64,000 nt of DNA from a virus, in IMG/VR virus record IMGVR_UViG_3300032323_000739, positions 1 through 64,000 of that record. One strand, 5' to 3'. This document shows, piece by piece, positions 38,456 to 62,355 of this stretch (positions within the stretch are counted from its first letter, which is position 1; the number at the start of each line of letters is the position of its first letter). The notes under the pieces are model-generated. The model saw nothing but the letters and a program-made list of their open reading frames with translations. It searched no databases and had not been told where the DNA came from. A program made the position numbers and the translations under genes.

Positions 38456-39260
38456 GACATTATTAGTAGATGGCGATAGTTGGACATACGGCAGTGAAAT
38501 ACGCGATCCCAAGTTGCCAGAAGAAGTAAAAGATTGGGACCCACCGAATGATGAATATCGATTACCGCGTATTTGGCCAACAAAGTTGGGAGAAATGTTA
38601 GGTGCTGACGAAGTGTTTAACATCAGTTATCCTGCATCTAGCAATGATGGAATAGTGCGAAGAACAGTAGGATGGATTACTCAAGAATATCTAAGCAAAG
38701 GTCGCGATACTAGCGATCTATTTGTAGTCATAGGATTTACTAGTCCAGAACGAAAAGATTTTTATTATCGTGACATTGACGACAAATATAAACACTTTTG
38801 GTACACACTTTGGCCAATGTGGAAACATCGTTATCCACAAGAGGAATTAAACAGATTTGCCGACATTTATGCTTCTTATATGTGGAACCCTGAAGAGTAT
38901 ACACATAGATATCTAAATCAAGTATTCTATTTGCAAACATTGTTTAATCATTACGGCATAAAACATTTATTTTTCCAAGCCTTTTATCAGCGTAATGATA
39001 TGCATATACGTCAGTGGACAGATGATCCATATAACAAACACTACAACGGACAACCAGATCAAATGGTTTGGGACATGATTGATCCTACACGATTTATGCA
39101 TAAGGATGACAAGATTCATAGTTTTCATAACTATATTTTAGATAAAGATACCAGCGAAGGAAAACGAAATAGTATTCTTAACATGCATCCTAGTGAATTA
39201 GGACATACATGGTGGGCCGAACACATTTATGAATACGGCAAAGGAAAAAAATTATGGTAA
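38442..39260 (+). CDS. SGNH/GDSL-fold esterase or acyltransferase-like protein
   Basis: DGDSWTYG block I, SN..I.R, G.T..ER, C-terminal HP...GH..WA. Confidence 0.65.
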   Translation: MQKVKTLLVDGDSWTYGSEIRDPKLPEEVKDWDPPNDEYRLPRIWPTKLGEMLGADEVFNISYPASSNDGIVRRTVGWITQEYLSKGRDTSDLFVVIGFTSPERKDFYYRDIDDKYKHFWYTLWPMWKHRYPQEELNRFADIYASYMWNPEEYTHRYLNQVFYLQTLFNHYGIKHLFFQAFYQRNDMHIRQWTDDPYNKHYNGQPDQMVWDMIDPTRFMHKDDKIHSFHNYILDKDTSEGKRNSILNMHPSELGHTWWAEHIYEYGKGKKLW

Positions 39261-40027
39261 AAGAAATTGTAGTTTGCGGGGATAGTTTTGGCTGCGGTTC
39301 GGGCATCCCCTTAGAATCTTGTTTTGAAGCATCTTTTGGTGGACAAGTCGCAGATCATTTTAATGTTCCTTTGAATGTGTATGCTAGATCGGGGTGTTGT
39401 AATTATGTGATATATCTGCAAGTTAAACAAGTAATTGAGGATTATCGTGCTAAAGAAAAACCATTTGTGTTAATATCAACAACTAATCACAGTCGATTTA
39501 CATTTCCTGTTGATACAACTTTAGGATATGTTAACTATACATTGGCTGATGTTGACTACGATAGTTATACTCCTTATTCTGAACATACAGGCCCAGGTCG
39601 TAGACCCAAGCCTATAGAAAATTTTAATAAACCTAAATTAATTAGTGAAACTGTTAGTAACATTTTATATTTTTTAGAACAAAATCCTGGAAATTTAGCA
39701 CCGTTGTTTTACAGTATTAAAAGAAAAATAAAAACTGTTGAGCTTTATTTTAGAGATTTGTACGATGACGAAATTAAACAAGTTAATGATACTGGTTTAA
39801 TATTATTAATGCACAACGAATTAAAAGAGGCCGGAATTCCGCATTTAATAATGACACCTAGTGAACACAGAGATCGTTTTATAGATAAAGAAAATTTCTT
39901 TTATAATAATTGGGGATACTATAGTCAAAAATATCCAGACTTGTACGGTAGCGGACATTGCACTGAAGTCGGTCACATGGAAGTAGCCAAAAAAATAATT
40001 AAACGAATAGAAGGAACGAGTTTGTGA
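39254..40027 (+). CDS. SGNH/GDSL-fold protein
   Basis: CGDSFG.G, ARSG.CN, C-terminal GH...GH..VA. Confidence 0.6.
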   Translation: MVKEIVVCGDSFGCGSGIPLESCFEASFGGQVADHFNVPLNVYARSGCCNYVIYLQVKQVIEDYRAKEKPFVLISTTNHSRFTFPVDTTLGYVNYTLADVDYDSYTPYSEHTGPGRRPKPIENFNKPKLISETVSNILYFLEQNPGNLAPLFYSIKRKIKTVELYFRDLYDDEIKQVNDTGLILLMHNELKEAGIPHLIMTPSEHRDRFIDKENFFYNNWGYYSQKYPDLYGSGHCTEVGHMEVAKKIIKRIEGTSL

Positions 40028-40710
40028 AATTAGTGTATGCTAACGGTGATAGTTGGACGCATGGTGACGAATTATCTGCGTTCGATGACATAGATCAAAC
40101 TTCTGTTCGATATTATAATTCTTGGCCGTGGAAATTATCTCAAATTTTAGACATTCCGGTATGTGTTAATGATGCACAAGGTGGCACAGGTAATTTACGT
40201 ATTTTTCGTAGAACTAACGAATTTATATATAGATGGATTGGTTCAGGAAAATCTGTCAGTGATTTATTAGTAGTAGTAGGATGGTCTACGCCCGAGCGTA
40301 CAGAAATTGGTGAAGGAAAAGGAATATATCCAATACAGATTCAGGGTCCTTTGTATTTTACAGATTTACCACGTGATGATGTTTCTTTAGAAAACTATCA
40401 TAAAGCATATTACGAAATATATTCAGACAGTTACGGAGAAAACTTAACAGCACTATATATGATGAATTTAAGAATGTTGTGCCAGGGATTAGGAATAAAA
40501 TATTTTGATTTTGTTGCTATAGGTAATCAACCTCAGCATTGGCAAGACTATATGAAATCAAAGTGGAATATAGAATTAACAAATATGTATATGAAAAGTA
40601 CCTGGAGTGCTGAAGTTTATAATAATAAATGGAGTAAACATAAGCACGGACATCCTACTAAAGAAACTCATGAACTATGGGCTAACATTTTAGCCAAGGA
40701 AATACAATGA
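40024..40710 (+). CDS. SGNH/GDSL-fold protein
   Basis: NGDSWTHG, GGTGN.RI.R, GWS..ER, HP....H..WA; GTG start. Confidence 0.65.
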   Translation: MKLVYANGDSWTHGDELSAFDDIDQTSVRYYNSWPWKLSQILDIPVCVNDAQGGTGNLRIFRRTNEFIYRWIGSGKSVSDLLVVVGWSTPERTEIGEGKGIYPIQIQGPLYFTDLPRDDVSLENYHKAYYEIYSDSYGENLTALYMMNLRMLCQGLGIKYFDFVAIGNQPQHWQDYMKSKWNIELTNMYMKSTWSAEVYNNKWSKHKHGHPTKETHELWANILAKEIQ

Positions 40711-45718: not shown

Positions 45719-46413
45719 TGTACGACATAGTGTTTATCAGTTACGGTGAGCCTAATGCAGAAGCCAATTGGGAACGATTAAAAAATAGATATCCCTTGGC
45801 TAAACGTGTTACCAATGTGGCAGGAATTCATCAAGCACATATTGCCGCGGCTAAAAAAGCCTTTACTAAAATGGTTTGGGTAGTGGATGGCGATGCAGAG
45901 GTATTACCTACATTTAATTTTGACTACGAAGTTAGCGAATGGGATTTAGATGTAGTACATGTATGGCGCAGTCGTAATCCTATAAATGATTTAGAATACG
46001 GGTACGGCGGAGTAAAACTATTGCCACGTAAGTTAACGCTGGATATGGATATTTCTAAACCAGACATGACTACCAGTATTAGTACAAAATTTAAAGCAAT
46101 GGCTGAAGTTAGTAATATTACTGCTTTTAACACTGATCCGTTTAATACTTGGAAGAGTGCGTTTCGCGAGTGCGTTAAGTTAGCCAGTAAAGTTATAGAT
46201 GGACAAGTTGACACTGAAACTGAGCATAGGTTATTAGAGTGGTGTACCCCACACGTAGATAGATTGCACGGTAACTGGGCGTTTCTTGGCGCAGAGGATG
46301 GCAAAATGTACGGCATGCAAAAGGCCGGAGATTTAAAAGCACTAGGTAAAATAAATGATTTTGAATGGCTACGACAATTCTTTTCAAGATATCCCGTTCC
46401 ACCAAATAGTTAA
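45718..46413 (+). CDS. GT-A glycosyltransferase-like protein, paralog of 34247-35143
   Basis: DIVFISY.EPNA...GIH.AH..AA....WVVDGDA; TAATG coupling to the SDR. Confidence 0.65.
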   Translation: MYDIVFISYGEPNAEANWERLKNRYPLAKRVTNVAGIHQAHIAAAKKAFTKMVWVVDGDAEVLPTFNFDYEVSEWDLDVVHVWRSRNPINDLEYGYGGVKLLPRKLTLDMDISKPDMTTSISTKFKAMAEVSNITAFNTDPFNTWKSAFRECVKLASKVIDGQVDTETEHRLLEWCTPHVDRLHGNWAFLGAEDGKMYGMQKAGDLKALGKINDFEWLRQFFSRYPVPPNS

Positions 46414-47353
46414 ATTTGGTCAACGCACTATGCTTGAACGACCTTTGTTCAACGTAAGTTGGATACTAGGTCGTTTTTGTAATTATAATTGTAGTTACTG
46501 CTGGCCCTATGCTAGAAGTGATAAATTGGATCATCTAGATTATGAAACTTATACAAACACCGTTGACGAAATAAAACGTCAGGCACGTGAACAAGGCTTC
46601 ACTGATTTTCATTGGAGTTTTAGTGGCGGCGAACCTACAGCATATAAACGATTATTAGATTTAGTTAAACATTTAGACGATGGAGTAAAATCTCCTTATC
46701 AAAGTATCCACATGACTACTAATCTTAGTCCAGGAAGTAAGTGGTGGGGCACCTGGTGTAAAAATACTGAGATGCTACAACGCAGAAGTTTAACAGCCAG
46801 TTTCCATACAGAATTTGCACGTGAACAAGAATTTGGAGACAAATGTCTACAATTAAATTACGAAGGTGTTCATGTAACAGTAAATCAGGTAATGGTTCCA
46901 GAATTGTTCTGGGACACCTATGCACGATGCGAACGTCTATACAAACGAGGTATAAATGTAACACTAAAACCTCAAAGCGATCCTACGGCTAGTTTTGTAG
47001 TCAGTGGTTACGATGACAAAATGTTAGAGGTTATGCAAACAGGATTTCCGCAATTATCGAGTGGCGAGCAGTTGTATCAGGTAGCATTATTTGACGAGTT
47101 AGGGCACGAATATTTGTTTGATCAAGCCGAAAGATTTAACGCATTTGGTTTTAACAAATTTCAAAATTGGACTTGCAATGCTGGCTATCAAAGTGTTATA
47201 ATAAGAAGCAACGAAGTTAAACGTAGTTATAGTTGTCACGATGAATCATTAGGAACTTTGATAAGCGGATTTAAATTATTTGACAGTCCTAAAAAATGTA
47301 TAACTCCAACTTGTGTTAGTTCGGCAGATAGTAAAATACCAAAAATAAAATGA
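46355..47353 (+). CDS. Radical SAM protein
   Basis: CNYNCSYC, SGGEPT; C-terminal CNAG...SC...C....C Cys cluster. Confidence 0.85.
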   Translation: MILNGYDNSFQDIPFHQIVKFGQRTMLERPLFNVSWILGRFCNYNCSYCWPYARSDKLDHLDYETYTNTVDEIKRQAREQGFTDFHWSFSGGEPTAYKRLLDLVKHLDDGVKSPYQSIHMTTNLSPGSKWWGTWCKNTEMLQRRSLTASFHTEFAREQEFGDKCLQLNYEGVHVTVNQVMVPELFWDTYARCERLYKRGINVTLKPQSDPTASFVVSGYDDKMLEVMQTGFPQLSSGEQLYQVALFDELGHEYLFDQAERFNAFGFNKFQNWTCNAGYQSVIIRSNEVKRSYSCHDESLGTLISGFKLFDSPKKCITPTCVSSADSKIPKIK

Positions 47354-48021: not shown

Positions 48022-48602
48022 ATACAGAACATTTACACCACTGGATGAGAGCAATTCGATCTAGCAAAGATCCTATACGTACCATGGATGCTTTTTGGAG
48101 AGGCCAAATTCTTAGTAAAGAATGGTTAATAGACAATATTAAACCGTTTGTCAATCAAGAAGTGTCTATAGACATACATGGCGGGTGGGTAGGAGTGTTA
48201 TCTAGTATGTTGTTTCAATCTGGCTTATCTATTAAACATATTCGTAGTATCGACATAGATCCAGACTGCAAGGATATAGCATCTAATATGAATCAGATAG
48301 AACTAGAACAAGGAAGATTTAGAGCTGTCACAGCAGATATGTGTACTATTCGCAGTGATGCAGATATTATAATTAATACTAGTTGTGAACACATTACACA
48401 AGATCAATACGACACTTGGTCAATAGGACATCCTAACAACAGTCTATTGGTATTACAGAGCAACAACTACAGCATTCCTGAACACGTTAGGCCTGCTCAA
48501 GATTTAGAAGAATTTAAATCTCAATGTGATGTAAATGTATTATGGGCAGGAGAATTAGAACTACCCCTGTACAAGCGATTTATGATTATAGGAACTAGAT
48601 GA
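48012..48602 (+). CDS. Class I SAM-dependent methyltransferase-like protein
   Basis: IHGGWVG motif I, SIDIDP, ADM, IINTSCEH. Confidence 0.65.
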   Translation: MQIDTEHLHHWMRAIRSSKDPIRTMDAFWRGQILSKEWLIDNIKPFVNQEVSIDIHGGWVGVLSSMLFQSGLSIKHIRSIDIDPDCKDIASNMNQIELEQGRFRAVTADMCTIRSDADIIINTSCEHITQDQYDTWSIGHPNNSLLVLQSNNYSIPEHVRPAQDLEEFKSQCDVNVLWAGELELPLYKRFMIIGTR

Positions 48603-49468
48603 TGAACAAACATTTTATTGAAATAGCACAATTTTACATGACTAATGTTTGTAATCTTACCTGTAATAATTGCTGTACTTTCAATAATAGAAGATTTTCG
48701 GGACACTATAAATTTAACGATTATCGAGATCATTATATTGAGTGGTCAAAAAAAGTTGATTTAGATTTTATGAGTATCCTAGGTGGAGAACCGTATGCTA
48801 ATCCAGATTTACCAAATTGGATAGATGGTCTCAGATCCTGCTGGCCAGATAACAAAAATTTTAGTATTTGTACAAACGGATCTTATCTCTCTACCTTCAA
48901 AGAATTGTCAAGAGATGCAATAAAAAAGGGATTATGGTTAGAAATAAATGTTCACGATCCTAATCAATATGATGATATTAAAAACAATTTGTTAGAAATT
49001 ATCAGTGTCTTTAATTATGAAGAAAAAGTTATACCTGATAAATTTCATGTAGATCATCTTGAATACTATGCTGACGGTATAAAAATAGCTCAAATAGTCA
49101 AATATTATAATTTTTTTAATTCAGCAACTACAGAGATTAAAAATAGAGTAACGTATTTTCATAATAGTAATCCAGAAATTGCTCACAGTGCTTGTTCAGC
49201 ATTTGATTGTCATTATTTTGTAAGAGGCGAACTTTATAAATGTTTTTTAACAGCAGTGGGAAGAGATTTAAATCAGCAATTTTTGATAGAGGATCGTGCT
49301 AAAACTCTTCTAGAAAACTATCAGGCCTGCTCACCGTGGTCTTCGGACGAACAAATTAAACAATTTATGAACAATATTAAAACCCCAATATCTCAATGTA
49401 GTCTTTGTCCAGAAAAATTAAATTTACAGCCTATATGGCCTTTAGAAAAGACCAAAATTAAATTGTAG
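48599..49468 (+). CDS. Radical SAM protein
   Basis: CNLTCNNC, LGGEP, TNG; C-terminal C...C....G.LYKC and C..CP. Confidence 0.85.
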   Translation: MMNKHFIEIAQFYMTNVCNLTCNNCCTFNNRRFSGHYKFNDYRDHYIEWSKKVDLDFMSILGGEPYANPDLPNWIDGLRSCWPDNKNFSICTNGSYLSTFKELSRDAIKKGLWLEINVHDPNQYDDIKNNLLEIISVFNYEEKVIPDKFHVDHLEYYADGIKIAQIVKYYNFFNSATTEIKNRVTYFHNSNPEIAHSACSAFDCHYFVRGELYKCFLTAVGRDLNQQFLIEDRAKTLLENYQACSPWSSDEQIKQFMNNIKTPISQCSLCPEKLNLQPIWPLEKTKIKL

Positions 49469-49528: not shown

Positions 49529-50452
49529 ATGAAAATTTTAATGACCGGAACCAGTGGATTTATCGGATCACATCTTAAACCACTGATTGAAAAAAATCAT
49601 ACTTTTTACTCTCTTAAAAGCGATTTGTTAGATTTTGAAGCAGTAACCAAAGAAGTATTAGATTTTAAACCAGATGTCATAGTACACCTTGGTGCTCGTA
49701 CAGAAGTTGAAAAAAGTTTTTATGAGCAAATAACATTTAGTCAAATTAATTATGTTGGTAGCGTCAACTTAATCGAAGCGGCTAGCAAAGTAGAGAATTT
49801 TAAAAATTTTGTTTTTGCCAGTACCATGGAAGTGTATGGCTGGCAACCTATTAGCGACGAAATTAAAGATAACGGTCAACCTTTAAATCATGTTGCGTTT
49901 GATGAAAATACCGAACCTCACCCTAATGCTCCCTATGCTGTAGCCAAATACGGTGTAGAAAAATATCTTGAATATATGCATCGTAGTTGCGGCTTTCCTT
50001 TTAGTGCCATTCGTCAGACTAATAGTTATGGTCGTAAAGATAATGATTTCTTTGTTGTAGAACAAATTATTACACAGATGTTAAAAAATCCTAATGAGGT
50101 AAATTTTGGTTATGCCGAGCCTTTTCGCAATTTTATTTTTATTGATGATTTACTTGCCGCTTGGATGACATTAATAGAAGATCCTAACATCGGTAAAACA
50201 GGAAAAATTTTTACAGTAGGACCAGACAATCCTATCAAGATAAAAGATCTAGCCAGCATTATTGCTAAGAAACTAAACTGGAACGGTGCAATTAACTGGA
50301 ATAAAAAACCTAAGCGTCAGGGAGAAATTTACTGGTTAAACAGCAACCATAATCTTTTAACTAAACACACTGGGTGGACTCCTAAGGTTAGTTTAAATGA
50401 CGGCATTGATCGAACTATAGAAATTTGGAGAAACATTTTACATGTTAAATGA
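49529..50452 (+). CDS. NAD-dependent nucleotide-sugar epimerase/dehydratase (extended SDR)
   Basis: TGTSGFIG, D.IVHL.A, STMEVYG, YAVAK, RNFIFIDD. Confidence 0.9.
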   Translation: MKILMTGTSGFIGSHLKPLIEKNHTFYSLKSDLLDFEAVTKEVLDFKPDVIVHLGARTEVEKSFYEQITFSQINYVGSVNLIEAASKVENFKNFVFASTMEVYGWQPISDEIKDNGQPLNHVAFDENTEPHPNAPYAVAKYGVEKYLEYMHRSCGFPFSAIRQTNSYGRKDNDFFVVEQIITQMLKNPNEVNFGYAEPFRNFIFIDDLLAAWMTLIEDPNIGKTGKIFTVGPDNPIKIKDLASIIAKKLNWNGAINWNKKPKRQGEIYWLNSNHNLLTKHTGWTPKVSLNDGIDRTIEIWRNILHVK

Positions 50453-51566
50453 ACTGCAAACTCATTGGGACAACAAAGTTGTTAATTACAATTTAGAAAA
50501 GTATAACTGGCCTGCGTGGGCGTTAAGTGTCATACAAGAAGTTGCACCACAAGTAAAAGAACTTGAAACAATGCATGAAGTTCTTACTCCCGTTGAGATT
50601 GTGCGGGTAAGTCAGCATGTGCAAAATTCATGCAGTCGTAAAGATTTTATGGAACGATTTGATGAATTTGCCGCAGGCATAGTTCCACAACGAATTGCTG
50701 GTAAACGTTACATGATTCAACGTCAAGGCACTCTTCGTGTGGTAATTCCCAATCAAGAAAGCGTAGGACGTAGACTGGCGTTTCATCAAGGTATTTTTGT
50801 AGGAAATGGTCGCGGTTGTCGTACTATCTGGACCCCATTTACAGAAGCCAAAGGTACTAATACTATGTGGATGTTAGACTTAGATATTAGTCGAGAAATT
50901 ACAAAACGTGTGCTTGCTGAAAAGTGGAGTCTTGAAAAGTTTGAAGAAGAAAGTCTAAAACATGCCTGGCCTGTTACACTGGAACCCGGCCAAAGCCACT
51001 TGTTCTTTCAAGAACATATACATGGCAATAAAAATAACACAGAGGGATATACTCGTGTTAGTATGGACATGCGTATTCTTATTGAAGGCGAAGAGTGGGG
51101 TCGTAGACTTCCTGGCGGATTTATGCGACTGCCAGGCGACTATGAAGTTGCAGACACAATGGACTATACTGGTAAAAGTTTTATTACCTATGCTGGTTGG
51201 AATAGTAAGTTTAGTAAAGATATTCCATTACCGATGCAACGTGCAATTATAGAGCCATACTGTCAAAAGAATAAGATTGCTTATACAAGTTACGAGTTTG
51301 AAAATGAACACATGGACTGGCAACCTGGACTAGAATACTACATTAAAGAACGTCCAGACGGTATTGTACTGTGCAGTATGTACTGTCTAACAGACGACGT
51401 GCAACGACGTAGCGAATTACTGCAACTGGCATTAGATCTAGGTGTAGAACTACACTTTGCCAACGAACTAGTAAGTTTAAAGTCAAAGAAAGATTTAGAA
51501 AAAATCGAAACCTATCTAAACTTTGCTGTACCTAAAAAAGGTCCGCATGTGTGGGAAGAACAATAA
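50442..51566 (+). CDS. Fe(II)/2OG oxygenase with HxG (halogenase-like) motif, fused to a sporadic-carbohydrate-cluster-like domain
   Basis: LRV..P, FHQG (H115-x-G117), IW.PFT, H194GN, R205VS. The C-terminal Q...I..YC...DGIV..S...L....R.....HFANE resembles the TIGR04323-type partner (recalled from memory). Confidence 0.65.
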   Translation: MLNELQTHWDNKVVNYNLEKYNWPAWALSVIQEVAPQVKELETMHEVLTPVEIVRVSQHVQNSCSRKDFMERFDEFAAGIVPQRIAGKRYMIQRQGTLRVVIPNQESVGRRLAFHQGIFVGNGRGCRTIWTPFTEAKGTNTMWMLDLDISREITKRVLAEKWSLEKFEEESLKHAWPVTLEPGQSHLFFQEHIHGNKNNTEGYTRVSMDMRILIEGEEWGRRLPGGFMRLPGDYEVADTMDYTGKSFITYAGWNSKFSKDIPLPMQRAIIEPYCQKNKIAYTSYEFENEHMDWQPGLEYYIKERPDGIVLCSMYCLTDDVQRRSELLQLALDLGVELHFANELVSLKSKKDLEKIETYLNFAVPKKGPHVWEEQ

Positions 51567-52072
51567 TGAATAGAGGGCATATTACGCCATTTTGGAGTAT
51601 GAGTGATATTAAAGCAGTGTTATTCACTCCACCTGCAAACGTTTACAACGGTTTTAAATTGATGGATTATCAAGAGGATGTTTATAAAAATATTGATATT
51701 TCTATCAACATACACAAAACTCTTCCAGATTTTATTAGCAAGGAAATTCTTGAACAAGAGTTTAGTTGGCTAAAAGAAAAAATGTATGCTGTACATCGAA
51801 TGACTCCGGGTACCGGACTGCCCGAACACTCTGATAGGTATGAATATTATTCTAAAACTAATAACATTGATGACATTAATCAAATAGAGCGGATAATTGT
51901 ATTTTTAGAAGATAAAAAAATAGGTCACGAGTTTGTTTTAGAAAATTACAAATTTGAGGATTGGAAAGCCGGGGACTGGGTAAGTTGGGTCGGTGGAGCG
52001 AATCATGCCGCATACAACGAAGGTGCGGAAGATCGATATACTATGCAGATTACCGGTATTAAAAAAAGTTAG
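51566..52072 (+). CDS. Fe(II)/2OG oxygenase-like cupin
   Basis: PG..LPEHSD (HxD), W.AGD, HAAYN....RYT.QIT; TAATG coupling. Confidence 0.7.
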   Translation: MNRGHITPFWSMSDIKAVLFTPPANVYNGFKLMDYQEDVYKNIDISINIHKTLPDFISKEILEQEFSWLKEKMYAVHRMTPGTGLPEHSDRYEYYSKTNNIDDINQIERIIVFLEDKKIGHEFVLENYKFEDWKAGDWVSWVGGANHAAYNEGAEDRYTMQITGIKKS

Positions 52073-53369
52073 AGTTTTTCTTAAGAGATTCTAAATTTTT
52101 AAAATTGTGTTCTATAATTGGTGTCATTTCACTATAGAGTACTTTTAAATCTTCTATTGATTTTGAACTTAGATAGTCAATAACTTTAAATATTTTTATT
52201 AATCGCTGTTCGTGATTTTCTTCTTGGTCATAACTTTCGTCCCAAAAATCACTAAAAGTTTTAAATCCTAGTTTTTTAGCATATTCTAAAGAATAAGGCG
52301 GAGCCATTAGTATAAAAGGTCTAAATGATTTAACTGCATTTAGAGTTTTTTCACTTAACATTCCTGTGGGCTGTGCAAATTTAGTTTCACTGACAACTGC
52401 ACAAAAACAACTTTGATATACTGATATAGGTAATTCGTTTATGCTAGGACACTCTTGTCTATGAAATACATAATCCATTACTATTGGTCCTTGATTTTGT
52501 AACTCCTCGACGCCATTTTTTATTTTTTTATAAAGTTCTGGGTAGATATTTTGCCAGCGATCGATATCAAACCACAGATTGCTGTTTATTTCTTCAAATG
52601 AAACATTGTGTTGCCAAGAATATTTTGTTTCTAAATTTTTTATATAACTGATTAATAAATGGCGGTATCCTGTGTATCTCCAGGCACCTGACCAAAATTT
52701 GTATTTTATTTTTGAGCAATCTGGTATATTAGAATCGGGATTATATGTATAAGTGGTAGTAGAATCAGTACTGTGTTTTAATAATGAGGTTTTAAAAATA
52801 TCTCGATTTTTAATTTCAAACGAATATTTTTCTTTAAAATATTTCTCAACGTTATAGTCAAAGGTATTGACTCTTACCTTTGTTAATCCATTTTTTAACA
52901 CAAATTTTTTAACACTATCTAGCTCAAAACAATGTAAATTTTCAATATTTTTTATAGTAGATTCGAAACCATTTATGATATAAACTGAATTTATTATTGG
53001 GTTATTATAAGCATCGGTGTCTTTTAAACTAAACGTATTTTTTTCGCCGATATCAAAAAACAAATTTTCGTAGAAGAAGATGTCCAATCCGTGTTCATTT
53101 ATATAAGTTACAACATCGTTAGGTAAAATTAAATTTTCTATTTGAGAAATTTGACCAATGCCTGTATAAACCATAAAAGGCGTTGGATAGTTGTATAGGT
53201 AAGTATCTTTGTAGTAGTCATCAAAATAATCAAAAAACGAATAATCATTACAAATTTCTTCTTGATTTACAATCTCTCCCGTTTTTAAAATAATAGAAGG
53301 CGACTGTATTTTTAAGTCTTGATATACAACACAAAAATAATAAGGACTTTCAACATCAAAATTTTTCAT
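52059..53369 (-). CDS. Putative GT-B glycosyltransferase (GT10/GT47-like C-terminal domain)
   Basis: Y..CFCAVVSET......SEKT......RPFI.....SL......GFKTF...WDESYD; tandem paralog of the next gene. Confidence 0.5.
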   Translation of the reverse strand: MKNFDVESPYYFCVVYQDLKIQSPSIILKTGEIVNQEEICNDYSFFDYFDDYYKDTYLYNYPTPFMVYTGIGQISQIENLILPNDVVTYINEHGLDIFFYENLFFDIGEKNTFSLKDTDAYNNPIINSVYIINGFESTIKNIENLHCFELDSVKKFVLKNGLTKVRVNTFDYNVEKYFKEKYSFEIKNRDIFKTSLLKHSTDSTTTYTYNPDSNIPDCSKIKYKFWSGAWRYTGYRHLLISYIKNLETKYSWQHNVSFEEINSNLWFDIDRWQNIYPELYKKIKNGVEELQNQGPIVMDYVFHRQECPSINELPISVYQSCFCAVVSETKFAQPTGMLSEKTLNAVKSFRPFILMAPPYSLEYAKKLGFKTFSDFWDESYDQEENHEQRLIKIFKVIDYLSSKSIEDLKVLYSEMTPIIEHNFKNLESLKKNSNFF

Positions 53370-54670
53370 AATATAACTGCATTGTTTTTAAACGTAGAAA
53401 GATTTTTTAAATTATGTTCTAAAACTGGTTTAATTTTATCATATAATTCTTTGAGATCCTCGATGCTATAACTATCGATATGGTCAATGAGTTTTAAAAT
53501 TTTTTCCATGCGGCGTGAGTGATTAATCTCTGTATCATAACTTTCGTCCCAGACCTCGCCAAAAGTTTTAAAACCCATTAGTTTTAAATATTCTAAAGTG
53601 CGTGGAGGAGCAACTAACACAAAAGGTCGCATAGCTCTAATTGCGTTTATTGTTTTTTCACTGAACAATCCAGTATCCTGAGTAAACCGAGATTCTGTAA
53701 CTACTGCACAAAAACATTGAGCATAAAATTCAATAGGTAATGGATGGGTCCAGTCGGGACTTTTAACACTCGGTTTACTGATTTGTTCAGATGATAAATT
53801 TACAATCTCGCCGGGTATATCAATGCTAAACGGACCTTTTTGATTTAAATATTTGTTGCCGTTTACTAGTTCATTTTTTTTAAAATCTAACTCAAACCAC
53901 AATGCTGATAAAAACTCCTCGGTAGACACGTTATAATTCCAACTAATTAAAGAAGATCGCTGACAAAGATATGCGGCAATTATATTTCTAAATGACGTGT
54001 ACCTCCAATTTGCAGACCAAAATTTATACTTGATTTCATCACTGCTAAAATTGGTTCGTATAGGATCAGTATTTTCATTAAACAACGATTGGATAAAAAT
54101 ATCTTTACAAAAAATTTTAAATTCTTTATATTGATTTGAAAATTTTTCTCTACAATAATAATCGCATGTAAAGACAGAAACATTTGTTAATTTATTTTTA
54201 ATAACAAACTCTTTAATCGATTCAAATTCATAACAGAATAATATTTCACTGTTATCTTTTTCTGAAAAAACTTCTTTAGCAGATTTATTACCTCGATGAT
54301 AATTGACCGGATCAATGTAAAATCGGTCATCGGAGTTATTAGTAAATGATAATATTTCGTACAGATATATTTCTAAACCTGTTTGATTAAGTTTTTCAAT
54401 AACTTTGCTATCTAGTTCTAACGATTCTAACTGCGGTATATTGCCTATACCTGTGTATATCATGTGTGGCTTTGATATTTTTTCTATAAAGGTACCAGTA
54501 TATAAATCTTGATAATAATCAAAAAAAGTATATTTTTCTGATTGTTGATCGGATCTAAATATCTCTCCGTTTTGAAGAATTAAAATAGGGTCAGAGAACA
54601 ACTTTTGATACAAAACACAAAAGTAATGATCGTTTCGAGTATCAAAAGTTTTTCCCGACAATGGTCTCAT
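53366..54670 (-). CDS. Putative GT-B glycosyltransferase, paralog of 52059-53369
   Basis: Shares YFCV.YQ, YTGIG.I.Q.E.L, IKYKFWS..WRYT..R, SEKT and WDESYD motifs. Confidence 0.5.
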   Translation of the reverse strand: MRPLSGKTFDTRNDHYFCVLYQKLFSDPILILQNGEIFRSDQQSEKYTFFDYYQDLYTGTFIEKISKPHMIYTGIGNIPQLESLELDSKVIEKLNQTGLEIYLYEILSFTNNSDDRFYIDPVNYHRGNKSAKEVFSEKDNSEILFCYEFESIKEFVIKNKLTNVSVFTCDYYCREKFSNQYKEFKIFCKDIFIQSLFNENTDPIRTNFSSDEIKYKFWSANWRYTSFRNIIAAYLCQRSSLISWNYNVSTEEFLSALWFELDFKKNELVNGNKYLNQKGPFSIDIPGEIVNLSSEQISKPSVKSPDWTHPLPIEFYAQCFCAVVTESRFTQDTGLFSEKTINAIRAMRPFVLVAPPRTLEYLKLMGFKTFGEVWDESYDTEINHSRRMEKILKLIDHIDSYSIEDLKELYDKIKPVLEHNLKNLSTFKNNAVIL

Positions 54671-55659
54671 TTATGATCCCTAGCAATGTCGAGGGTTACG
54701 CAATGAAATCCGCCACCTAAGGTCCTTTGTTGTCGTCCAGGTAGCATAGCACACTCTATTTTATATTTGGCCAATTCTTTTCTTAGAGGTTCTTGTACAT
54801 TGGGCAGTGCTACTAGATTAGGATTAATACTAAACAAATTTACATTCATCCACTTACTAGCATTACAATAACCGGGATAATGACCTACATCGACAGCATC
54901 ATCGACAAAAATGGCATCCCAACTTTGTAAAGGTTTAGGCAATTGATCTTTGCTCTTAATTCGACTCCCGTTTAACAGCATTAGTCCTTCTCTTAACAAT
55001 GCTATAGTACTGTCTATGTGCATATAACTGTAAACACCTTCAACTAGCCATACTTTTTTTGACGGTCCTACTAATTCTTGTAGATACTCTGCACCTTTCT
55101 TATTAGCACTGTTACTGACTAGATAATATAAGTTATCGTTATCTTTTAAAACATTTGCCGCATCAAAGCAAGGTTCTATTTCTGTTAGTGCTAAAATGTC
55201 TTTGTCTCCTAGACACTTTTCATTATATAACGCATCGGATTTTTCCGCCGCTGCCTGTATGTAACGTACTCCGTTTTTAGCAAATCTTTGAAAATGTGCG
55301 TCCATACTACGCCACTCTCCTTCTCTCGCTCTTAGGGGTTGTGGAGTTGCTAATATTAAATCGTCGTAGACTATGACATTATCGCGAGGACAATAGTTAT
55401 AATAGTTTGGTTCAAAATTAGAATCGGGTCTAAGAACCTCAACACCTTCCCCTTTTAAAAATTTACAAAATTCTTCTAAATCTTCGTTGGCTTCGTCTAT
55501 AACTTGTTGCGGATATCTACCCTGAGGAATTTTACTTTCGTCTGTGTAGTCAGCATAGTTTACGCATCTTAGACTTTTATCTAGAGATGGTATTTTAGCA
55601 TCGTCGGCAATGCCAACGATTACAGTTTTTAAAGGATCCCATTCGTTTTTACTTAACAT
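54667..55659 (-). CDS. Amidinotransferase (StrB1/glycine amidinotransferase family)
   Basis: NEWDPLK.VIVG, CPRD, FDAAN, HIDST, C-terminal GGGFHCVTLD (Asp-His-Cys triad). Confidence 0.9.
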   Translation of the reverse strand: MLSKNEWDPLKTVIVGIADDAKIPSLDKSLRCVNYADYTDESKIPQGRYPQQVIDEANEDLEEFCKFLKGEGVEVLRPDSNFEPNYYNYCPRDNVIVYDDLILATPQPLRAREGEWRSMDAHFQRFAKNGVRYIQAAAEKSDALYNEKCLGDKDILALTEIEPCFDAANVLKDNDNLYYLVSNSANKKGAEYLQELVGPSKKVWLVEGVYSYMHIDSTIALLREGLMLLNGSRIKSKDQLPKPLQSWDAIFVDDAVDVGHYPGYCNASKWMNVNLFSINPNLVALPNVQEPLRKELAKYKIECAMLPGRQQRTLGGGFHCVTLDIARDHK

Positions 55660-58617: not shown

Positions 58618-59918
58618 GTGCTTTCCTGCCAGTGTGAATTGCGTGACAAACAACGATTTGTAATTTTATTTCTAGCATCTGATATTTCAGTTTTACTATG
58701 TAAAAAATTGCTAATCATAAAATAATTTAAAATAGTGCTAGTGTGTATAAATGCATTATCTAACTTTGAAACTATTAAATCAATTTTTGATAAAAGATCA
58801 ATATTATGAAACTCTACTTCTAAATTTTTAAAATGGTCCCAGTTGTTTAATATTTTTTCATTTAATCCTTGATACTTTTGAGACTCGCACTGAGCACTAT
58901 CTAAGTGCGGTTCAATACCGATATTTCTTTCTTTTGCCCAGGAGTTAGCGAACTCTTGATAATTTTTTCCGTCCCATGTTTGATATAAAGATTTTTTAAA
59001 TTCTATATTATTAGGATTTAAATCATAAAAAATTATTTTCTTAGCATTACTGGTAAGTGCCATGCTTTCACCTAAAAGTCCGTTAGCCGGACTGATTACT
59101 ACATCTGCTTGTATGTGCGGAGCATGACAGTCCCAGTGCCACACATTTAAATAATTAAATTCTAAAGCCTTTTTAATAATAGCAATAATCATTATTTGAC
59201 TTTCATCAAGATCATCTGTAATTGTTAAAGATTTAAGTGCTGGTTCAAATAATTCTGGACGTATTTTAGGATAAAAATGGCCACGTGCCGGCAAGCGATA
59301 TCTATCTTTATCAAACCCTAAGTCGTCAACTAAATCTTCTATAGAAATAAATTTTAAATTATTTTCTGGATATCTCCAGTCTTCGTCAAAGTTAACAACT
59401 GTATAGCCTTGGTTTAGTGCCTCCTCCATAACGGCTGCTCCAAAGTCCATGACTCTTTCTGTTTTTTCTTCTGCCAAATACACACTAAGTGGAGCATGTC
59501 CGCAGTTCATGTCGCCGTGCCCTCGAACAAATCTGGATCCATAATCTTCGTAAGAAGAAAAATTTAATCCTTTAGGAAATGCGCGAGTATTAATAATAAA
59601 ACATTGATCGTGTAAGTGGGGAGTGGTGTCCTCGGGGTACCAAATAATATGCCCCATAACTCCGATATTATCAGTTAAACTATGTATTTTATTCCACAAG
59701 TGATCTCTGTTAATAATCACATCGCCTGCAGTTTCCACAAACAGCCAGTCGGCCTGATCTAAATAATCATTAATTTGTTCATAACTATTCACTGTAACTA
59801 CTGGATAGTTGCCTTCGCTAAGTTGATACTGTCCTGCCTCTGTAATCTGTAACATCTTAGCATCTAGCCAAGGATGATTAGTAGAGATCTGTACTGTAAT
59901 AAAAATAACCCGATTCAT
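58614..59918 (-). CDS. Hypothetical protein (possible GT-A-like N-terminal and methyltransferase-like C-terminal domains)
   Basis: 434-aa ORF coupled to neighbours. LH.QCF.IN and IIFYD.N....F are suggestive only. Confidence 0.4.
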   Translation of the reverse strand: MNRVIFITVQISTNHPWLDAKMLQITEAGQYQLSEGNYPVVTVNSYEQINDYLDQADWLFVETAGDVIINRDHLWNKIHSLTDNIGVMGHIIWYPEDTTPHLHDQCFIINTRAFPKGLNFSSYEDYGSRFVRGHGDMNCGHAPLSVYLAEEKTERVMDFGAAVMEEALNQGYTVVNFDEDWRYPENNLKFISIEDLVDDLGFDKDRYRLPARGHFYPKIRPELFEPALKSLTITDDLDESQIMIIAIIKKALEFNYLNVWHWDCHAPHIQADVVISPANGLLGESMALTSNAKKIIFYDLNPNNIEFKKSLYQTWDGKNYQEFANSWAKERNIGIEPHLDSAQCESQKYQGLNEKILNNWDHFKNLEVEFHNIDLLSKIDLIVSKLDNAFIHTSTILNYFMISNFLHSKTEISDARNKITNRCLSRNSHWQEST

Positions 59919-60558
59919 CTTGTTTTTCCAATGCTTGTTTCATCATGTCTTTCCATTCTGGCGTACTGTCATGATGATGTACTATTAAATGATAACGATC
60001 TTCCGTGCTACGATTTTCTATACTATGTTCATAACTGAGATTCATAGCATAGGCATCTCCAGGTTTAAAATCAACCTTAGATCCGTCTGTCCACTGCCAA
60101 ACACAATTAGGATGATTAGTGAGGGCAATATTTACAGCATCCGGTATAGAGTAAGGACTGTCCCGATGTTGACTAATAAACCCACCTGCTTTTAACAACA
60201 TAAATCTTACTCTGCCTAATTGTTGACTAGGAAAGACATTTTTTAACCAATTTACTGTTACTGGGCATTGCTCTGCAATTTCAGTCCATGTAAAATCTTT
60301 AGCAGCCTCGCGTGGACTAGCGTATCCGTAGGCATCCCAACTCATAGGACGATCTAACCCTAATCCGTATATAGGTAAACTAAACCAATCGTGGTGGTCG
60401 TATCCGTCATCTTTTCTATATCTAATAAATTGATCTTTTAACGACTGTGCTTCGGCAGCCATGGCTTCGTGTGGGATTTCCAAATCTAATTTTAAACATT
60501 TGGCAGAAGTGTATAGATATTCTCTTGCACCTTCTGTATATTCTTTACTAAAATTCAT
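59878..60558 (-). CDS. Aspartyl/asparaginyl beta-hydroxylase-like Fe/2OG oxygenase
   Basis: CP.T..WL, RVRFM.L..GG.I..HRD, NIAL, G.......EHS..N.S..DRYHLI. Confidence 0.8.
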   Translation of the reverse strand: MNFSKEYTEGAREYLYTSAKCLKLDLEIPHEAMAAEAQSLKDQFIRYRKDDGYDHHDWFSLPIYGLGLDRPMSWDAYGYASPREAAKDFTWTEIAEQCPVTVNWLKNVFPSQQLGRVRFMLLKAGGFISQHRDSPYSIPDAVNIALTNHPNCVWQWTDGSKVDFKPGDAYAMNLSYEHSIENRSTEDRYHLIVHHHDSTPEWKDMMKQALEKQDESGYFYYSTDLY

Positions 60559-60609: not shown

Positions 60610-61695
60610 ATGTTTAAATTTGACGAACTTCAAACCATTCATTTAGAAATAACCAATAACTGTCAAGCCAGTTGCCCTATGTGTGCTAGAAACTATCACG
60701 GCGGTCAGCCCAATCCATTGTTAAAAATTAATAATTGGACACTAAAAGATTTCCAAGATATTTTTACAGACGAAGTGATCGCACAAGTTAAAGGCATCTA
60801 CTTTTGTGGAAACTTTGGAGATCCGTTATTAAACAACGATTTTTTAGACATGATAAAATGGATAGTACCAAAAAGTCCTAATCTTGTTATTAATGTACAT
60901 ACCAACGGTGGTGCTCGTAAAACTGAATGGTGGGAAGAATTAGCTCGTAGCCTACCACAGAATCACATGATAAATTTTGGCATCGATGGATTGGAGGATA
61001 CACATCATTTATATCGAGTCGGAACAACCTATGAAAATGTTATACGTAATGCTAAAGCATTTATAGATGCAGGCGGTCGTGCTGAGTGGGTTTTCTTAAA
61101 ATTTAAACATAACGAACATCAGGAAGAAGAAGCGCGTCGACGTGCTAAAGATTTAGGCTTTGAAATTTTTACATTAAAAAATTCCAGTAGATTTTTAGGA
61201 GAACCTAGATATAGAGTTATTGACAAGGAAGGTAATATTACACATTATATTGAACCTCCTAATGATAACAAGATGCATTTTATTAGCAAAGAAATGATAG
61301 ATAACTATCGAGAAACTATCATGCCTCTTGAAATTAGTTGTAAGGTACAACGTGATAGAGAAATTTATATAGATGCTTTTAAGATGGTCATGCCCTGCTG
61401 TTGGTTAGCCAGCGCACCTTATACACAATATGATTATGATAATGTTAATGCGCATATACGATCTGAAATTAAACGACAGTATCACGACTTAGTTGATGCA
61501 TTAGGCGGACCACAAGCATTAGATGCTGTTAACGTTGGTATAAAAGCAGTTATAGATTCTAAACCATGGCAGACAGTGTGGGAAGAATATTGGACAAATA
61601 AGAAAATGATCATGTGTGCTCGTATATGTGGTCAAACACCTACGATTTCAAAACCAACAGATCAATTTTTAGAAAGAAAGAAATTAAACTCTTAA
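60610..61695 (+). CDS. Radical SAM protein with SPASM/twitch-like C-terminus
   Basis: CQASCPMC, GNFGDP, TNG; C-terminal C...PCCW...C..IC. Confidence 0.85.
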   Translation: MFKFDELQTIHLEITNNCQASCPMCARNYHGGQPNPLLKINNWTLKDFQDIFTDEVIAQVKGIYFCGNFGDPLLNNDFLDMIKWIVPKSPNLVINVHTNGGARKTEWWEELARSLPQNHMINFGIDGLEDTHHLYRVGTTYENVIRNAKAFIDAGGRAEWVFLKFKHNEHQEEEARRRAKDLGFEIFTLKNSSRFLGEPRYRVIDKEGNITHYIEPPNDNKMHFISKEMIDNYRETIMPLEISCKVQRDREIYIDAFKMVMPCCWLASAPYTQYDYDNVNAHIRSEIKRQYHDLVDALGGPQALDAVNVGIKAVIDSKPWQTVWEEYWTNKKMIMCARICGQTPTISKPTDQFLERKKLNS

Positions 61696-62355
61696 AATTT
61701 CGTAGTGCATTCCTGTTTGAGAAATTAAATTTTTAAAATTTTCTAAAACAGTTTCGTCTTTGTAAGAAATCATTATTTCTCTGTCGTTGATCCAACGAAA
61801 GCCAGTAATATCGCCTTGCTTTATAGCATAATTTATAAATGTACTCATGTTCACATTTATAATGTGTTTAAAATCAAAATCTCCACCTAACATTTTTATA
61901 TGAACTGGGTTTTCTTTAATGTCTGGTAAAGGAACACGAATATTTAAATGAATTCTATCTCGACTACCAAAGTTAACTGCTACATGCCTAGGCCCGGTAT
62001 CCATTAGCCAAACTTCACCGTTGACAGGAAGATGATACATTTTATTTTCATCTAAGTCGATGAGATAGCAATACGGATTAGTAGTAATCGCTAAGTGTAA
62101 CCGATCATCCGGGTCGCTGTGCGCCATGTAACATTCTTCCGGACGAAGTCTCATTAATCTGGCTTCTCCTACGTTATCCAAATTGGCTAATAGATCTCCT
62201 AACGGAGTTCCAACGAACTCGGGCTTTGTGACATACGGACCGTTAAACACAGTTCCTCTGGTTTCGTTAAGGGCTAATCTTTTATCAAATTCCAAAGACA
62301 GAACTTGATCAATAATAGATTGGATAGGAAATTTTTTGTTAGTCTGGTGTAGCAT
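61684..62355 (-). CDS. Aspartyl/asparaginyl beta-hydroxylase-like Fe/2OG oxygenase with C-terminal extension
   Basis: ARLM.L.....Y.AHSD...RLH.AI.TN, DT...H.AVNFG...RIHL. Confidence 0.7.
   Translation of the reverse strand: MLHQTNKKFPIQSIIDQVLSLEFDKRLALNETRGTVFNGPYVTKPEFVGTPLGDLLANLDNVGEARLMRLRPEECYMAHSDPDDRLHLAITTNPYCYLIDLDENKMYHLPVNGEVWLMDTGPRHVAVNFGSRDRIHLNIRVPLPDIKENPVHIKMLGGDFDFKHIINVNMSTFINYAIKQGDITGFRWINDREIMISYKDETVLENFKNLISQTGMHYEILRV

What the first reader, a model, noticed from the sequence alone, without database searches (positions are those of the whole stretch)
50442..51566. Fe/2OG enzyme with HxG instead of HxD/E: candidate phage radical halogenase, fused to a carbohydrate-cluster domain
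Seen: CAT CAA GGT at 50784-50792 gives H115-Q-G117, with distal H194 and a 2OG-binding R205-x-S207. The other three oxygenases in the window keep HxD (HSD, HRD, HSD). Established: replacing the facial-triad carboxylate with Gly or Ala opens a halide site in SyrB2, WelO5 and BesD-type halogenases. The C-terminal about 130 aa resemble a small protein normally encoded separately beside such oxygenases in polysaccharide loci (recalled from memory). The gene overlaps an NDP-sugar epimerase/dehydratase. Inference: chlorination of an NDP-sugar, cyclitol or nucleotide by a phage enzyme.
Basis: partly seen in the sequence, partly recalled or inferred. Interest (0 to 1): 0.8.

Follow-up and report, generated by a model that had tools for sequence, protein, structure and literature searches.

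The report
Phage iron oxygenase with Gly–Gln site
An uncultured giant marine phage carries a very conserved two-domain iron/2-oxoglutarate enzyme in which the usual iron-binding aspartate is glycine, always paired with one particular glutamine, so it is either an oxygenase with a rebuilt iron site or (less likely) the first viral radical halogenase, and only an assay can tell.

Summary
Observation confirmed. ORF 50442-51566 (+, 374 aa) has H115-Q-G117, distal H194 and R205-x-S207. A profile alignment to PtlH puts G117 at the facial-triad Asp position. The gene fuses a PhyH/PtlH-type oxygenase (TIGR04324-like) to a TIGR04323-like domain with a resolvase-type fold.

Gly117 is selected, not an error. 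It is invariant in 81 viral loci and uses three synonymous codons. Distant relatives, including bacterial O-antigen-locus homologs, have HxD.

New points:
- Gly117 is strictly coupled to Gln190, four residues before H194 (27/27 HxG rows against 1/55 HxD rows).
- An AU test rejects a single origin of HxG, so the pair switched together several times.
- Residue 190 is where HygX, a solved sugar-acting HxG enzyme, keeps its relocated Glu iron ligand.
- AspH is a natural 2-His hydroxylase that does not halogenate.

HxG alone therefore does not make this a halogenase. My odds:
- about 0.5 for an oxygenase with a rebuilt Gly/Gln iron site;
- about 0.3 for a halogenase.

The substrate is unknown. The commonest neighbours are a StrB1-type amidinotransferase and an NDP-sugar dehydratase-like SDR, but a fifth of loci have neither.

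The scan met this enzyme before on other phage DNA, and follow-ups there reached the same Gly-Gln coupling.

The parts
50442..51566 (+). Whole gene, 374 aa: two-domain Fe(II)/2OG enzyme
   Evidence: ORF. AF2 model has pLDDT 97.3 and pTM 0.92. More than 585 homolog clusters in metagenomes.
50442..51158 (+). N-terminal PhyH/PtlH-type double-stranded beta-helix oxygenase domain (residues 1-239)
   Evidence: TIGR04324 E 8.6e-20. PtlH profile hit E 2.4e-8. Foldseek top hits CurA Hal, ThoJ and PtlH, E 1e-9 to 1e-7. VIA-align PtlH Z 14.7.
50784..50792 (+). H115-Q116-G117: proximal iron His, and Gly at the facial-triad carboxylate position
   Evidence: H115 is invariant in the 82-sequence alignment. 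Gly is encoded by three synonymous codons across 81 loci.
51009..51011 (+). Q190 (CAA), four residues before the distal His. It is strictly coupled to G117 and sits at the position of HygX's relocated Glu ligand.
   Evidence: 27/27 HxG rows against 1/55 HxD rows have Gln. Codons CAA 60 and CAG 21, never a Glu codon. HygX motif from PMC13374393.
51021..51023 (+). H194, distal iron-binding His (motif HGN)
   Evidence: Invariant. Aligns to the distal His of PtlH. H192 varies.
51054..51062 (+). R205-V-S207, RxS motif for the 2OG C5 carboxylate
   Evidence: R205 is invariant and S207 is conserved in at least 90% of rows. Aligns to 'MRMSMD' of PtlH.
51159..51563 (+). C-terminal TIGR04323 (LIC12192-like) alpha/beta domain with a serine-recombinase (resolvase) catalytic-domain fold and no DNA-binding part
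   Evidence: TIGR04323 E 1.6e-13. Separate AF2 model has pLDDT 94. Foldseek hits TP901-1, phiC31-type and gamma-delta resolvase catalytic domains, TM 0.6-0.67, E about 2e-4.
49529..50452 (+). Upstream, overlapping NDP-sugar 4,6-dehydratase/epimerase-like SDR
   Evidence: Pfam Epimerase 1.9e-37 and GDP_Man_Dehyd 5.4e-35. NCBIfam dTDP-glucose 4,6-dehydratase 1.9e-31 and LegB 3.6e-30, both below cutoff. Adjacent in 18 of 41 well-flanked viral loci.
51551..52072 (+). Downstream small cupin-like protein with HSD. Its probable start is the ATG at 51566, overlapping the TAA of the target.
   Evidence: No family hit. Homolog next to the target in 21 of 41 loci.
54667..55659 (-). StrB1-type amidinotransferase, the commonest neighbour of the target in related phages
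   Evidence: PDB 1bwd (inosamine-phosphate amidinotransferase) E 8.1e-58, full length. Homolog within 1.5 kb of the target in 23 of 41 loci.

Best explanation
The gene encodes an active Fe(II)/2-oxoglutarate oxygenase of the PhyH/PtlH fold, fused to a resolvase-fold TIGR04323 domain. It serves a sugar- or aminocyclitol-type tailoring pathway of a giant marine myovirus.

Shown: iron is held by H115 and H194, and 2OG by R205/S207. The canonical Asp is replaced by G117.

Inferred: the vacated place is served by Q190, at His-4, the position from which HygX supplies its relocated Glu. Q190 would act either as a weak amide-oxygen ligand or as a hydrogen-bond donor to an iron-bound water or to a substrate group.

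Inferred: the outcome is oxygen chemistry (hydroxylation, or a HygX-like non-hydroxylating oxidation), not halide transfer. The Asp117/non-Gln190 and Gly117/Gln190 states would then be two alternative ways of building the same metal site, and the family has swapped between them several times. The substrate is not identified. The best guess is an amino- or guanidino-sugar or cyclitol (phosphate or NDP form).
For: - Fold and ligand positions.
- Strict G117-Q190 coupling, 27/27 against 1/55.
- The AU test rejects a single HxG clade (p-AU 0.003), so the two residues switched together repeatedly. This is what a volume- or ligand-compensating pair is expected to do (Asp to Gly loses a side chain; Ser/Ala/Asn to Gln gains one).
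- The HygX motif H-X-G...E-X3-H puts a real iron ligand at exactly this offset in a solved sugar-acting enzyme (PMC13374393). HygX's relatives AviO1 and EvdO2 are among the top structural neighbours, Z 12.7-12.9 against a best of 14.7.
- AspH shows that a 2-His site can hydroxylate and does not halogenate in chloride (PMC6817910).
- Possible intermediate states exist in nature: HND or HCD with Gln190 (P0136, L093/L094) and HSD with Glu190 (P0138).
- HxD-type relatives also occur on viral contigs. HxD homologs in bacteria sit in ordinary O-antigen/NDP-sugar loci.
Against: - Gln190 is never Glu in 27 diverse HxG rows and 81 viral loci, although CAA to GAA is a single step. If the role were merely a third ligand, Glu as in HygX should be acceptable. 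The insistence on a neutral amide fits an anion (halide) site at least as well.
- No Fe/2OG enzyme with a 2-His-1-Gln site is known to me (own knowledge).
- In the BesD/HalA family the hydroxylase-to-halogenase switch is also Asp-to-Gly plus gain of a second-sphere amide, V224N (bioRxiv 10.1101/2024.09.19.613983).
Confidence: 0.5

Rival explanations
1. It is a radical Fe(II)/2OG halogenase. Chloride or bromide binds iron at the site opened by G117 and is held by the amide N-H of Q190. After hydrogen abstraction the halogen rebounds onto an unactivated carbon of a sugar, cyclitol or nucleotide substrate, possibly as a cryptic leaving group.
For: - HxG sits at the triad position and is under purifying selection.
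- HXG/A is the criterion the field uses to find such enzymes, and it has worked (PMC11186838; PMC13519999).
- No HxG-specific invariant carboxylate exists.
- Gln is strict and Glu is never seen at 190.
- The Asp-to-Gly change comes with gain of an amide and loss of Asn128, loosely like D144G/V224N/N151I in HalA.
- The fold class is that of SyrB2 and CurA Hal, and the top Foldseek hit is CurA Hal, E 1.8e-9.
- The habitat is marine (Tara Oceans surface-sample members).
Against: - Q190 lies where HygX's Glu reaches the iron, so it may occupy the halide's place.
- AspH is a counter-example to 'HxG means halogenase'.
- There is no match to the SyrB2/CmaB model or any halogenase family at E <= 1.
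- VIA-align ranks hydroxylases (PtlH Z 14.7) above halogenases, which are not in its top 50.
- Several back-and-forth switches of product chemistry in one gene family are less parsimonious than two equivalent site designs.
- No halogenated sugar nucleotide or surface glycan is known to me (own knowledge).
Confidence: 0.3
2. It has a substrate-completed 2-His site of the AspH type. Neither Gln190 nor a halide binds iron. An anionic group of the substrate (phosphate, carboxylate or sulfate) or water fills the site, and Q190 positions that group. The chemistry is hydroxylation.
For: - The AspH precedent, with two waters on the metal and the substrate side chain nearby.
- The window and related loci encode kinases, a PAPS-type module and phosphorylated-cyclitol enzymes (StrB1 homolog, kinase, EEVS), so anionic substrates are plausible.
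- A neutral hydrogen-bond donor (Gln, never Glu) suits binding an anion.
Against: There is no specific homology to AspH. It cannot be told from the best explanation without a structure. The substrate is unknown.
Confidence: 0.12
3. It is a catalytically dead binding protein or scaffold that has lost its iron site.
For: Loss of one of the three canonical ligands.
Against: H115, H194 and R205 are invariant and S207 nearly so. The protein is 72-93% identical across phages whose neighbouring genes are far more diverged. Selection acts at G117 and Q190.
Confidence: 0.03

Closest known systems
TIGR04324 'sporadic carbohydrate cluster 2OG-Fe(II) oxygenase' plus TIGR04323 'LIC12192 family' partner (uncharacterised; bacterial surface-polysaccharide loci)
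   Same: Both domains are homologous (E 8.6e-20 and 1.6e-13). Fused bacterial homologs lie in O-antigen/NDP-sugar loci: SAR86 with FnlA/B/C-like genes, a GT, a GNAT and DegT; Bacteriovoracaceae with GT2, GT9 and an RmlD-like gene. The distal HG, the RVSxD motif and W130 are shared.
   Different: Scores are below both curated cutoffs (71 against 150; 50.7 against 55). Bacterial and distant members have HxD with Ser/Ala/Asn at His-4, while this clade has HxG with Gln190. No member of either family has a tested function, and I found no paper on them.
HygX (hygromycin B orthoester synthase; PDB 4XCA/4XCB) and the orthosomycin oxygenases AviO1 and EvdO2
   Same: All are PhyH-like Fe/2OG enzymes acting on sugar or aminocyclitol substrates. 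HygX has H-X-G with the third ligand moved to His-4 (E-X3-H) (PMC13374393). Here the motif is H-Q-G...Q190-X3-H194. AviO1 and EvdO2 are structural neighbours at Z 12.9 and 12.7.
   Different: Position His-4 is Gln, never Glu. HygX itself is not in the top 50 rows listed. No residue-level alignment to HygX could be made, because there was no sequence hit. HygX has no TIGR04323 domain.
Fe(II)/2OG radical halogenases (SyrB2, CurA Hal, CytC3; WelO5; BesD/HalA; AdaV/AdeV; DAH)
   Same: It shares the 2-His site with Gly or Ala at the carboxylate position, and the PhyH fold class of SyrB2 and CurA Hal: Foldseek E 1.8e-9 to 4e-7 and a weak CytC3 profile hit, E 2. Close relatives with HxD exist, as in the BesD family.
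   Different: There is no sequence-family membership. The coupled Gln sits at a position that can reach the metal. No halide chemistry has been shown. Known substrates of these enzymes are carrier-bound or free amino acids, indole alkaloids, dAMP/dGMP and a plant alkaloid, not sugar-pathway intermediates.
AspH (human aspartate/asparagine beta-hydroxylase)
   Same: Natural 2-His iron site with an RxS 2OG motif. It hydroxylates and shows no halogenation in chloride (PMC6817910).
   Different: It belongs to a different branch of the superfamily and acts on a protein substrate. No specific homology was tested beyond the shared fold class.
PtlH (1-deoxypentalenic acid 11-beta-hydroxylase, PDB 2RDN)
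   Same: Best solved relative by sequence profile (E 2.4e-8) and by VIA-align (Z 14.7, rmsd 3.5 A over 214 residues). Ligand positions align.
   Different: PtlH has a canonical HxD, Ala at His-4, no second domain and a terpenoid substrate.

Membership tests
Fe(II)/2OG oxygenase superfamily, PhyH/PtlH-like branch | Double-stranded beta-helix fold with proximal His, distal His and Arg (RxS) for the 2OG C5 carboxylate | tested here: met
   AF2 pLDDT 97.3. PtlH profile E 2.4e-8 with the motifs aligned. VIA-align Z 14.7. H115, H194 and R205 invariant.
Fe(II)/2OG oxygenase superfamily, PhyH/PtlH-like branch | Carboxylate (Asp/Glu) two residues after the proximal His | tested here: not met
   G117, invariant in 81 viral loci.
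Fe(II)/2OG radical halogenases | Gly or Ala replaces the facial-triad carboxylate and is conserved in the clade | tested here: met
Fe(II)/2OG radical halogenases | The vacated coordination site is free for a halide (no protein side chain takes it) | tested here: inconclusive
   No HxG-specific invariant Asp or Glu. However, the invariant coupled Gln190 sits at the HygX ligand position.
Fe(II)/2OG radical halogenases | Sequence membership in a known halogenase family (e.g. the SyrB2/CmaB NCBIfam model) | tested here: not met
   The NCBIfam scan at E <= 1 returned only TIGR04324 and TIGR04323.
Fe(II)/2OG radical halogenases | Halide-dependent C-X bond formation | not testable with these tools
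   Needs an enzyme assay.
TIGR04324 sporadic carbohydrate cluster 2OG-Fe(II) oxygenase | Score at or above the curated cutoff (150 bits) | tested here: not met
   71.3 bits, E 8.6e-20. It is homologous but outside the curated family.
TIGR04323 LIC12192 family | Score at or above the curated cutoff (55 bits) | tested here: not met
   50.7 bits, E 1.6e-13, residues 260-359, just below the cutoff.
HygX-type relocated-ligand oxygenases | H-X-G together with an acidic ligand at His-4 (E-X3-H) | tested here: not met
   H-Q-G is present, but His-4 is Gln190, never Glu. Motif definition from PMC13374393.
Serine recombinase (resolvase) catalytic domain | Resolvase fold plus the catalytic Ser/Arg motif and a DNA-binding domain | tested here: inconclusive
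   The fold is similar (TM 0.6-0.67, E about 2e-4). There is no DNA-binding domain. The conserved residues are Q266, S312, F339 and E342, which do not look like the YxRVS(T)xxQ motif (motif from own knowledge; by eye, no alignment made).

The most novel reading that the evidence does not exclude
This is the first virus-encoded Fe(II)/2OG radical halogenase, and the first tied to a sugar or aminocyclitol pathway. It would be a Gly117/Gln190 halide site that evolved several times from hydroxylase relatives, carried by abundant giant marine phages (hundreds of 90%-identity clusters in ocean metagenomes). That would make chlorinated or brominated glycan-type molecules a widespread product of phage infection.
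Probability: 0.3. Interest if true: 0.85.

Novelty: new variant of a known kind. Interest (0 to 1): 0.6.

Why it matters
Either outcome would be new.

If it is a halogenase, it adds a viral, sugar-pathway class to a small and biotechnologically prized enzyme group. It would also point to halogenated glycans in the sea.

If it is not, it is a natural Fe/2OG enzyme whose third ligand position has been rebuilt as Gly plus a distant Gln. That design has been swapped with the canonical Asp several times within one family. It would be a ready-made natural experiment on how first- and second-sphere residues decide between hydroxylation and halogenation, a question now studied mainly with engineered BesD/HalA and SadA variants.

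The gene is also the best-conserved member of fast-changing glycan-type islands in uncultured giant phages. Its substrate is therefore probably central to what those islands make.

Tried and rejected
- Pfam and PHROGs gave no hit for the target.
- The search for related loci with the wide alignment failed because no stretch was conserved enough. Single distant queries P0125, P0155 and P0132 found nothing in viral contigs.
- A 'shorter proteins' search for stand-alone C-domains returned only truncated fragments of the same phage clade.
- phmmer of the N-domain against PDB gave nothing useful. HygX itself never appeared as a sequence hit, so the Q190-to-Glu equivalence rests on the published motif offset, not on an alignment.
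- McCulloch et al. 2015 (PMC4577193) is not held. My recollection that SyrB2 Ser231 (also at His-4) lines the chloride pocket could not be verified and is not used as evidence.
- I first assumed a cyanomyovirus and rejected that: the nearest cultured baseplate-wedge homologs are jumbo phages (Atu_ph07, Phosso, SCTP-2, fHe-Yen9-04) at 35-39% identity, and CheckV puts the 89-kb record at 24% complete.
- E191, D10 and D74 were considered as substitute carboxylates and rejected, because none is invariant in the HxG group.
- Literature searches for 'sporadic carbohydrate cluster', TIGR04324, and 'radical halogenase' with 'phage' gave nothing. Cyanophage 'halogenase' mentions refer to flavin-dependent PrnA-type enzymes.
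Full report
**Observation.** The ORF at 50442-51566 (+) is open and encodes 374 aa. CAT CAA GGT at 50784-50792 gives H115-Q-G117. H194 (51021-51023) and R205-V-S207 (51054-51062) are present. The three other oxygenase-like genes of the window keep HxD: HSD at 51551-52072, HRD at 59878-60558 (-) and HSD at 61684-62355 (-). The gene overlaps the stop of an upstream SDR gene by 11 nt. That SDR is of the NDP-sugar 4,6-dehydratase/epimerase type.

**What the protein is.**
- NCBIfam finds two homologies, both below the curated cutoffs: TIGR04324 'sporadic carbohydrate cluster 2OG-Fe(II) oxygenase' (residues 31-212, E 8.6e-20) and TIGR04323 'LIC12192 family' (residues 260-359, E 1.6e-13). Pfam and PHROGs are silent.
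- An AlphaFold model built on 82 homologs is very confident (pLDDT 97.3, pTM 0.92).
- The N-domain is a PhyH-type double-stranded beta-helix. The best solved relative is the hydroxylase PtlH, by profile (E 2.4e-8) and by VIA-align (Z 14.7, rmsd 3.5 A over 214 residues).
- Foldseek puts the CurA halogenase domain first (E 1.8e-9), with ThoJ, PtlH, GriE, EctD, SnoK/N and SyrB2 close behind. The sugar-acting orthosomycin oxygenases AviO1 and EvdO2 are also in the top 50 (Z 12.7-12.9). All of these lie within about 2 Z units, so the fold does not discriminate between chemistries.
- The profile alignment to PtlH places H115/G117 on PtlH's His/Asp ligands and H194 on its distal His. H192 varies (H/Q/M) in relatives, so it is not the ligand.
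- The C-domain, folded alone (pLDDT 94), has the fold of serine-recombinase catalytic domains (TM 0.6-0.67, E about 2e-4). It has no DNA-binding part, and its conserved residues (Q266, S312, F339, E342) differ. Its role is unknown. The high pTM of the whole model suggests that it packs firmly on the oxygenase.

**The virus.**
- The window is part of an 89-kb IMG/VR record that CheckV rates 24% complete.
- It has T4-type late sigma and baseplate genes.
- The nearest cultured baseplate-wedge homologs are jumbo phages (Atu_ph07, Phosso, SCTP-2, fHe-Yen9-04) at only 35-39% identity.
- It is therefore an uncultured giant myovirus, not a classical cyanomyovirus. The host is unknown.

**Is the Gly real and selected?** Yes.
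- The protein has more than 585 90%-identity clusters in metagenomes and at least 130 relatives in viral contigs.
- In 81 viral copies HQG is invariant. Gly uses GGT (52), GGC (22) and GGA (7); His and Gln190 also use both of their codons.
- A library-wide HMMER search with the N-domain found 269 representatives. In their alignment the nearer half of the family carries H-(Q/T/N)-G down to about 25% identity, interleaved with some HxD members. The farther half is uniformly HxD ('FHTDEWYGH').

**The new element: Gln190.**
- Comparing HxG with HxD rows, one other position is absolutely discriminating. This is residue 190, four residues before the distal His. It is Gln in 27/27 HxG rows and in 1/55 HxD rows, where it is otherwise Ser, Ala, Asn, Pro and others.
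- Weaker partners are T128 (Asn in most HxD rows), N196 and V101.
- A tree built without the motif columns interleaves the two states. An AU test rejects a tree that holds the 27 HxG rows together (lnL difference 111, p-AU 0.003). Asp/Gly at 117 and non-Gln/Gln at 190 have therefore switched together several times. The caveats are a quick tree, long branches and no root.
- States that could be intermediates exist: HND or HCD with Gln190 (P0136; viral loci L093/L094) and HSD with Glu190 (P0138).
- No Asp or Glu is invariant in the HxG group and absent from the HxD group. E191 is Glu in 13 of 19 non-redundant HxG rows, and D10 and D74 are also incomplete.

**How to read the Gly-Gln pair.** Two published facts cut against 'HxG means halogenase'.
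- Human AspH binds iron with two His only, hydroxylates, and showed no halogenase activity with chloride (PMC6817910).
- HygX, a PhyH-like oxygenase acting on an aminocyclitol glycoside, has H-X-G...E-X3-H. Its carboxylate ligand has moved to His-4, with Gly left at the old place (PMC13374393).

Residue 190 here is at exactly that offset (Q190-E-H-I-H194). A side chain at this position can therefore reach the metal site. The simplest reading of a repeatedly co-switching pair, small-for-large at 117 and large-for-small at 190, is that Gln190 serves the place Asp117 vacated, as a weak ligand or as a donor to an iron-bound water or substrate group.

Against that reading, Gln is never Glu, although one nucleotide change would make it so. 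A site that insists on a neutral amide suits an anion such as a halide. In the BesD/HalA family the hydroxylase-to-halogenase switch is likewise Asp-to-Gly plus gain of a second-sphere Asn (bioRxiv 10.1101/2024.09.19.613983). HXG/A filtering has also been a productive way to find halogenases (PMC11186838).

I could not measure distances in the model, because coordinates are not exposed. My odds are:
- about 0.5 for an oxygenase with a rebuilt Gly/Gln site;
- about 0.12 for an AspH-like substrate-completed site;
- about 0.3 for a halogenase;
- about 0.03 for a dead enzyme.

**Substrate and context.**
- In the window the gene lies in an island of more than 30 kb. The island holds a kinase, an EEVS/DHQS-like cyclase, SDRs, several radical SAM proteins, a GDSL protein, a DegT fragment, an APS-kinase-like protein and a full-length StrB1-type amidinotransferase (PDB 1bwd, E 8.1e-58).
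- Across related phages the island is shuffled, and the target is its best-conserved gene: 72-93% identity, against 56-75% for the SDR and 30-52% for the small oxygenase.
- Of 41 viral loci with at least 3 kb on both sides, 23 have an amidinotransferase homolog within 1.5 kb and 18 have the SDR. Eight have none of the window's island genes within 6 kb.
- One of those eight, L066, has the gene among a Bax1-I-like protein, NAD synthase and a cell-wall hydrolase.
- Viral HxD relatives also sit outside sugar clusters: L093 lies between an AAA ATPase and a DUF2201/VWA protein, and L095 beside a redoxin and methyltransferases.
- Bacterial fused HxD homologs (Alphaproteobacteria, Gammaproteobacteria, SAR86, Pelagibacteraceae, Bdellovibrionota, Planctomycetes) lie in surface-polysaccharide loci.
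- A sugar or aminocyclitol-type substrate is thus the best guess. It may be a common host metabolite rather than a product of the adjacent genes. 'NDP-sugar chlorination' is an inference, not a finding.

**Comparison and novelty.**
- I found no paper on TIGR04324/TIGR04323 or on viral Fe/2OG halogenases. Cyanophage 'halogenases' in the literature are flavin-dependent.
- The enzyme is a new variant of a known kind. It belongs to the PhyH branch of the Fe/2OG superfamily and fails the canonical-triad feature. It meets the HxG feature of halogenases but belongs to none of their families. It resembles HygX in site layout but has Gln where HygX has Glu.
- The scan met the same enzyme on other phage DNA. 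Earlier follow-ups (e1-5411591, e1-5335683, e1-5659935) reported the same Gly-Gln coupling, and one gave the HygX lead. I checked that lead against the review text and the structural-neighbour list. I re-derived the coupling independently here and added the AU test, the codon evidence and the context counts.

**Verdict.** This is a well-founded candidate that only an assay or a metal-bound structure can resolve.

Noticed in passing
window 10753-24171 (+): A single 4472-aa ORF between the baseplate-wedge gene and the tail-fibre-like genes, presumably a giant virion protein.
   Followed up: no
window 52059-54670 (-): Two adjacent paralogous proteins of about 435 aa with no Pfam or NCBIfam hit. 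Distant homologs (27-40% identity) occur in only about 6 of the 80 related viral loci (L041-L044, L056, L069).
   Followed up: partly
window 38442-39260 and 40024-40710 (+): Two DUF6071 paralogs inside the biosynthetic island. Most genes between 31.9 and 40.7 kb have no family at all.
   Followed up: no
window 35140-36555, 46355-47353, 48599-49468, 60610-61695: Four radical SAM proteins in one phage island. Two give weak viperin/MoaA-like NCBIfam hits far below cutoff.
   Followed up: no
L081:8001-9101 (+) and L081:15749-16858 (-): One viral contig carries two paralogs of the target (72% and 49% identical to the window's). Both have HQG and Gln at His-4.
   Followed up: partly
L093/L094:8028-9125; proteins P0136 and P0138: Mixed states of the coupled pair occur: HCD or HND with Gln at His-4, and HSD with Glu at His-4. 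They may be evolutionary intermediates between the two site designs.
   Followed up: partly
window 7302-10748 (+) and the whole record: The phage's nearest cultured relatives by baseplate wedge are 290-490 kb jumbo phages at 35-39% identity, and CheckV rates the 89-kb record 24% complete. This is a lineage of uncultured giant marine myoviruses.
   Followed up: partly
window 51564-51568: The stop of the target and the likely start of the downstream small oxygenase overlap as TAATG. The upstream SDR overlaps the target by 11 nt. This suggests translational coupling of the three genes.
   Followed up: no
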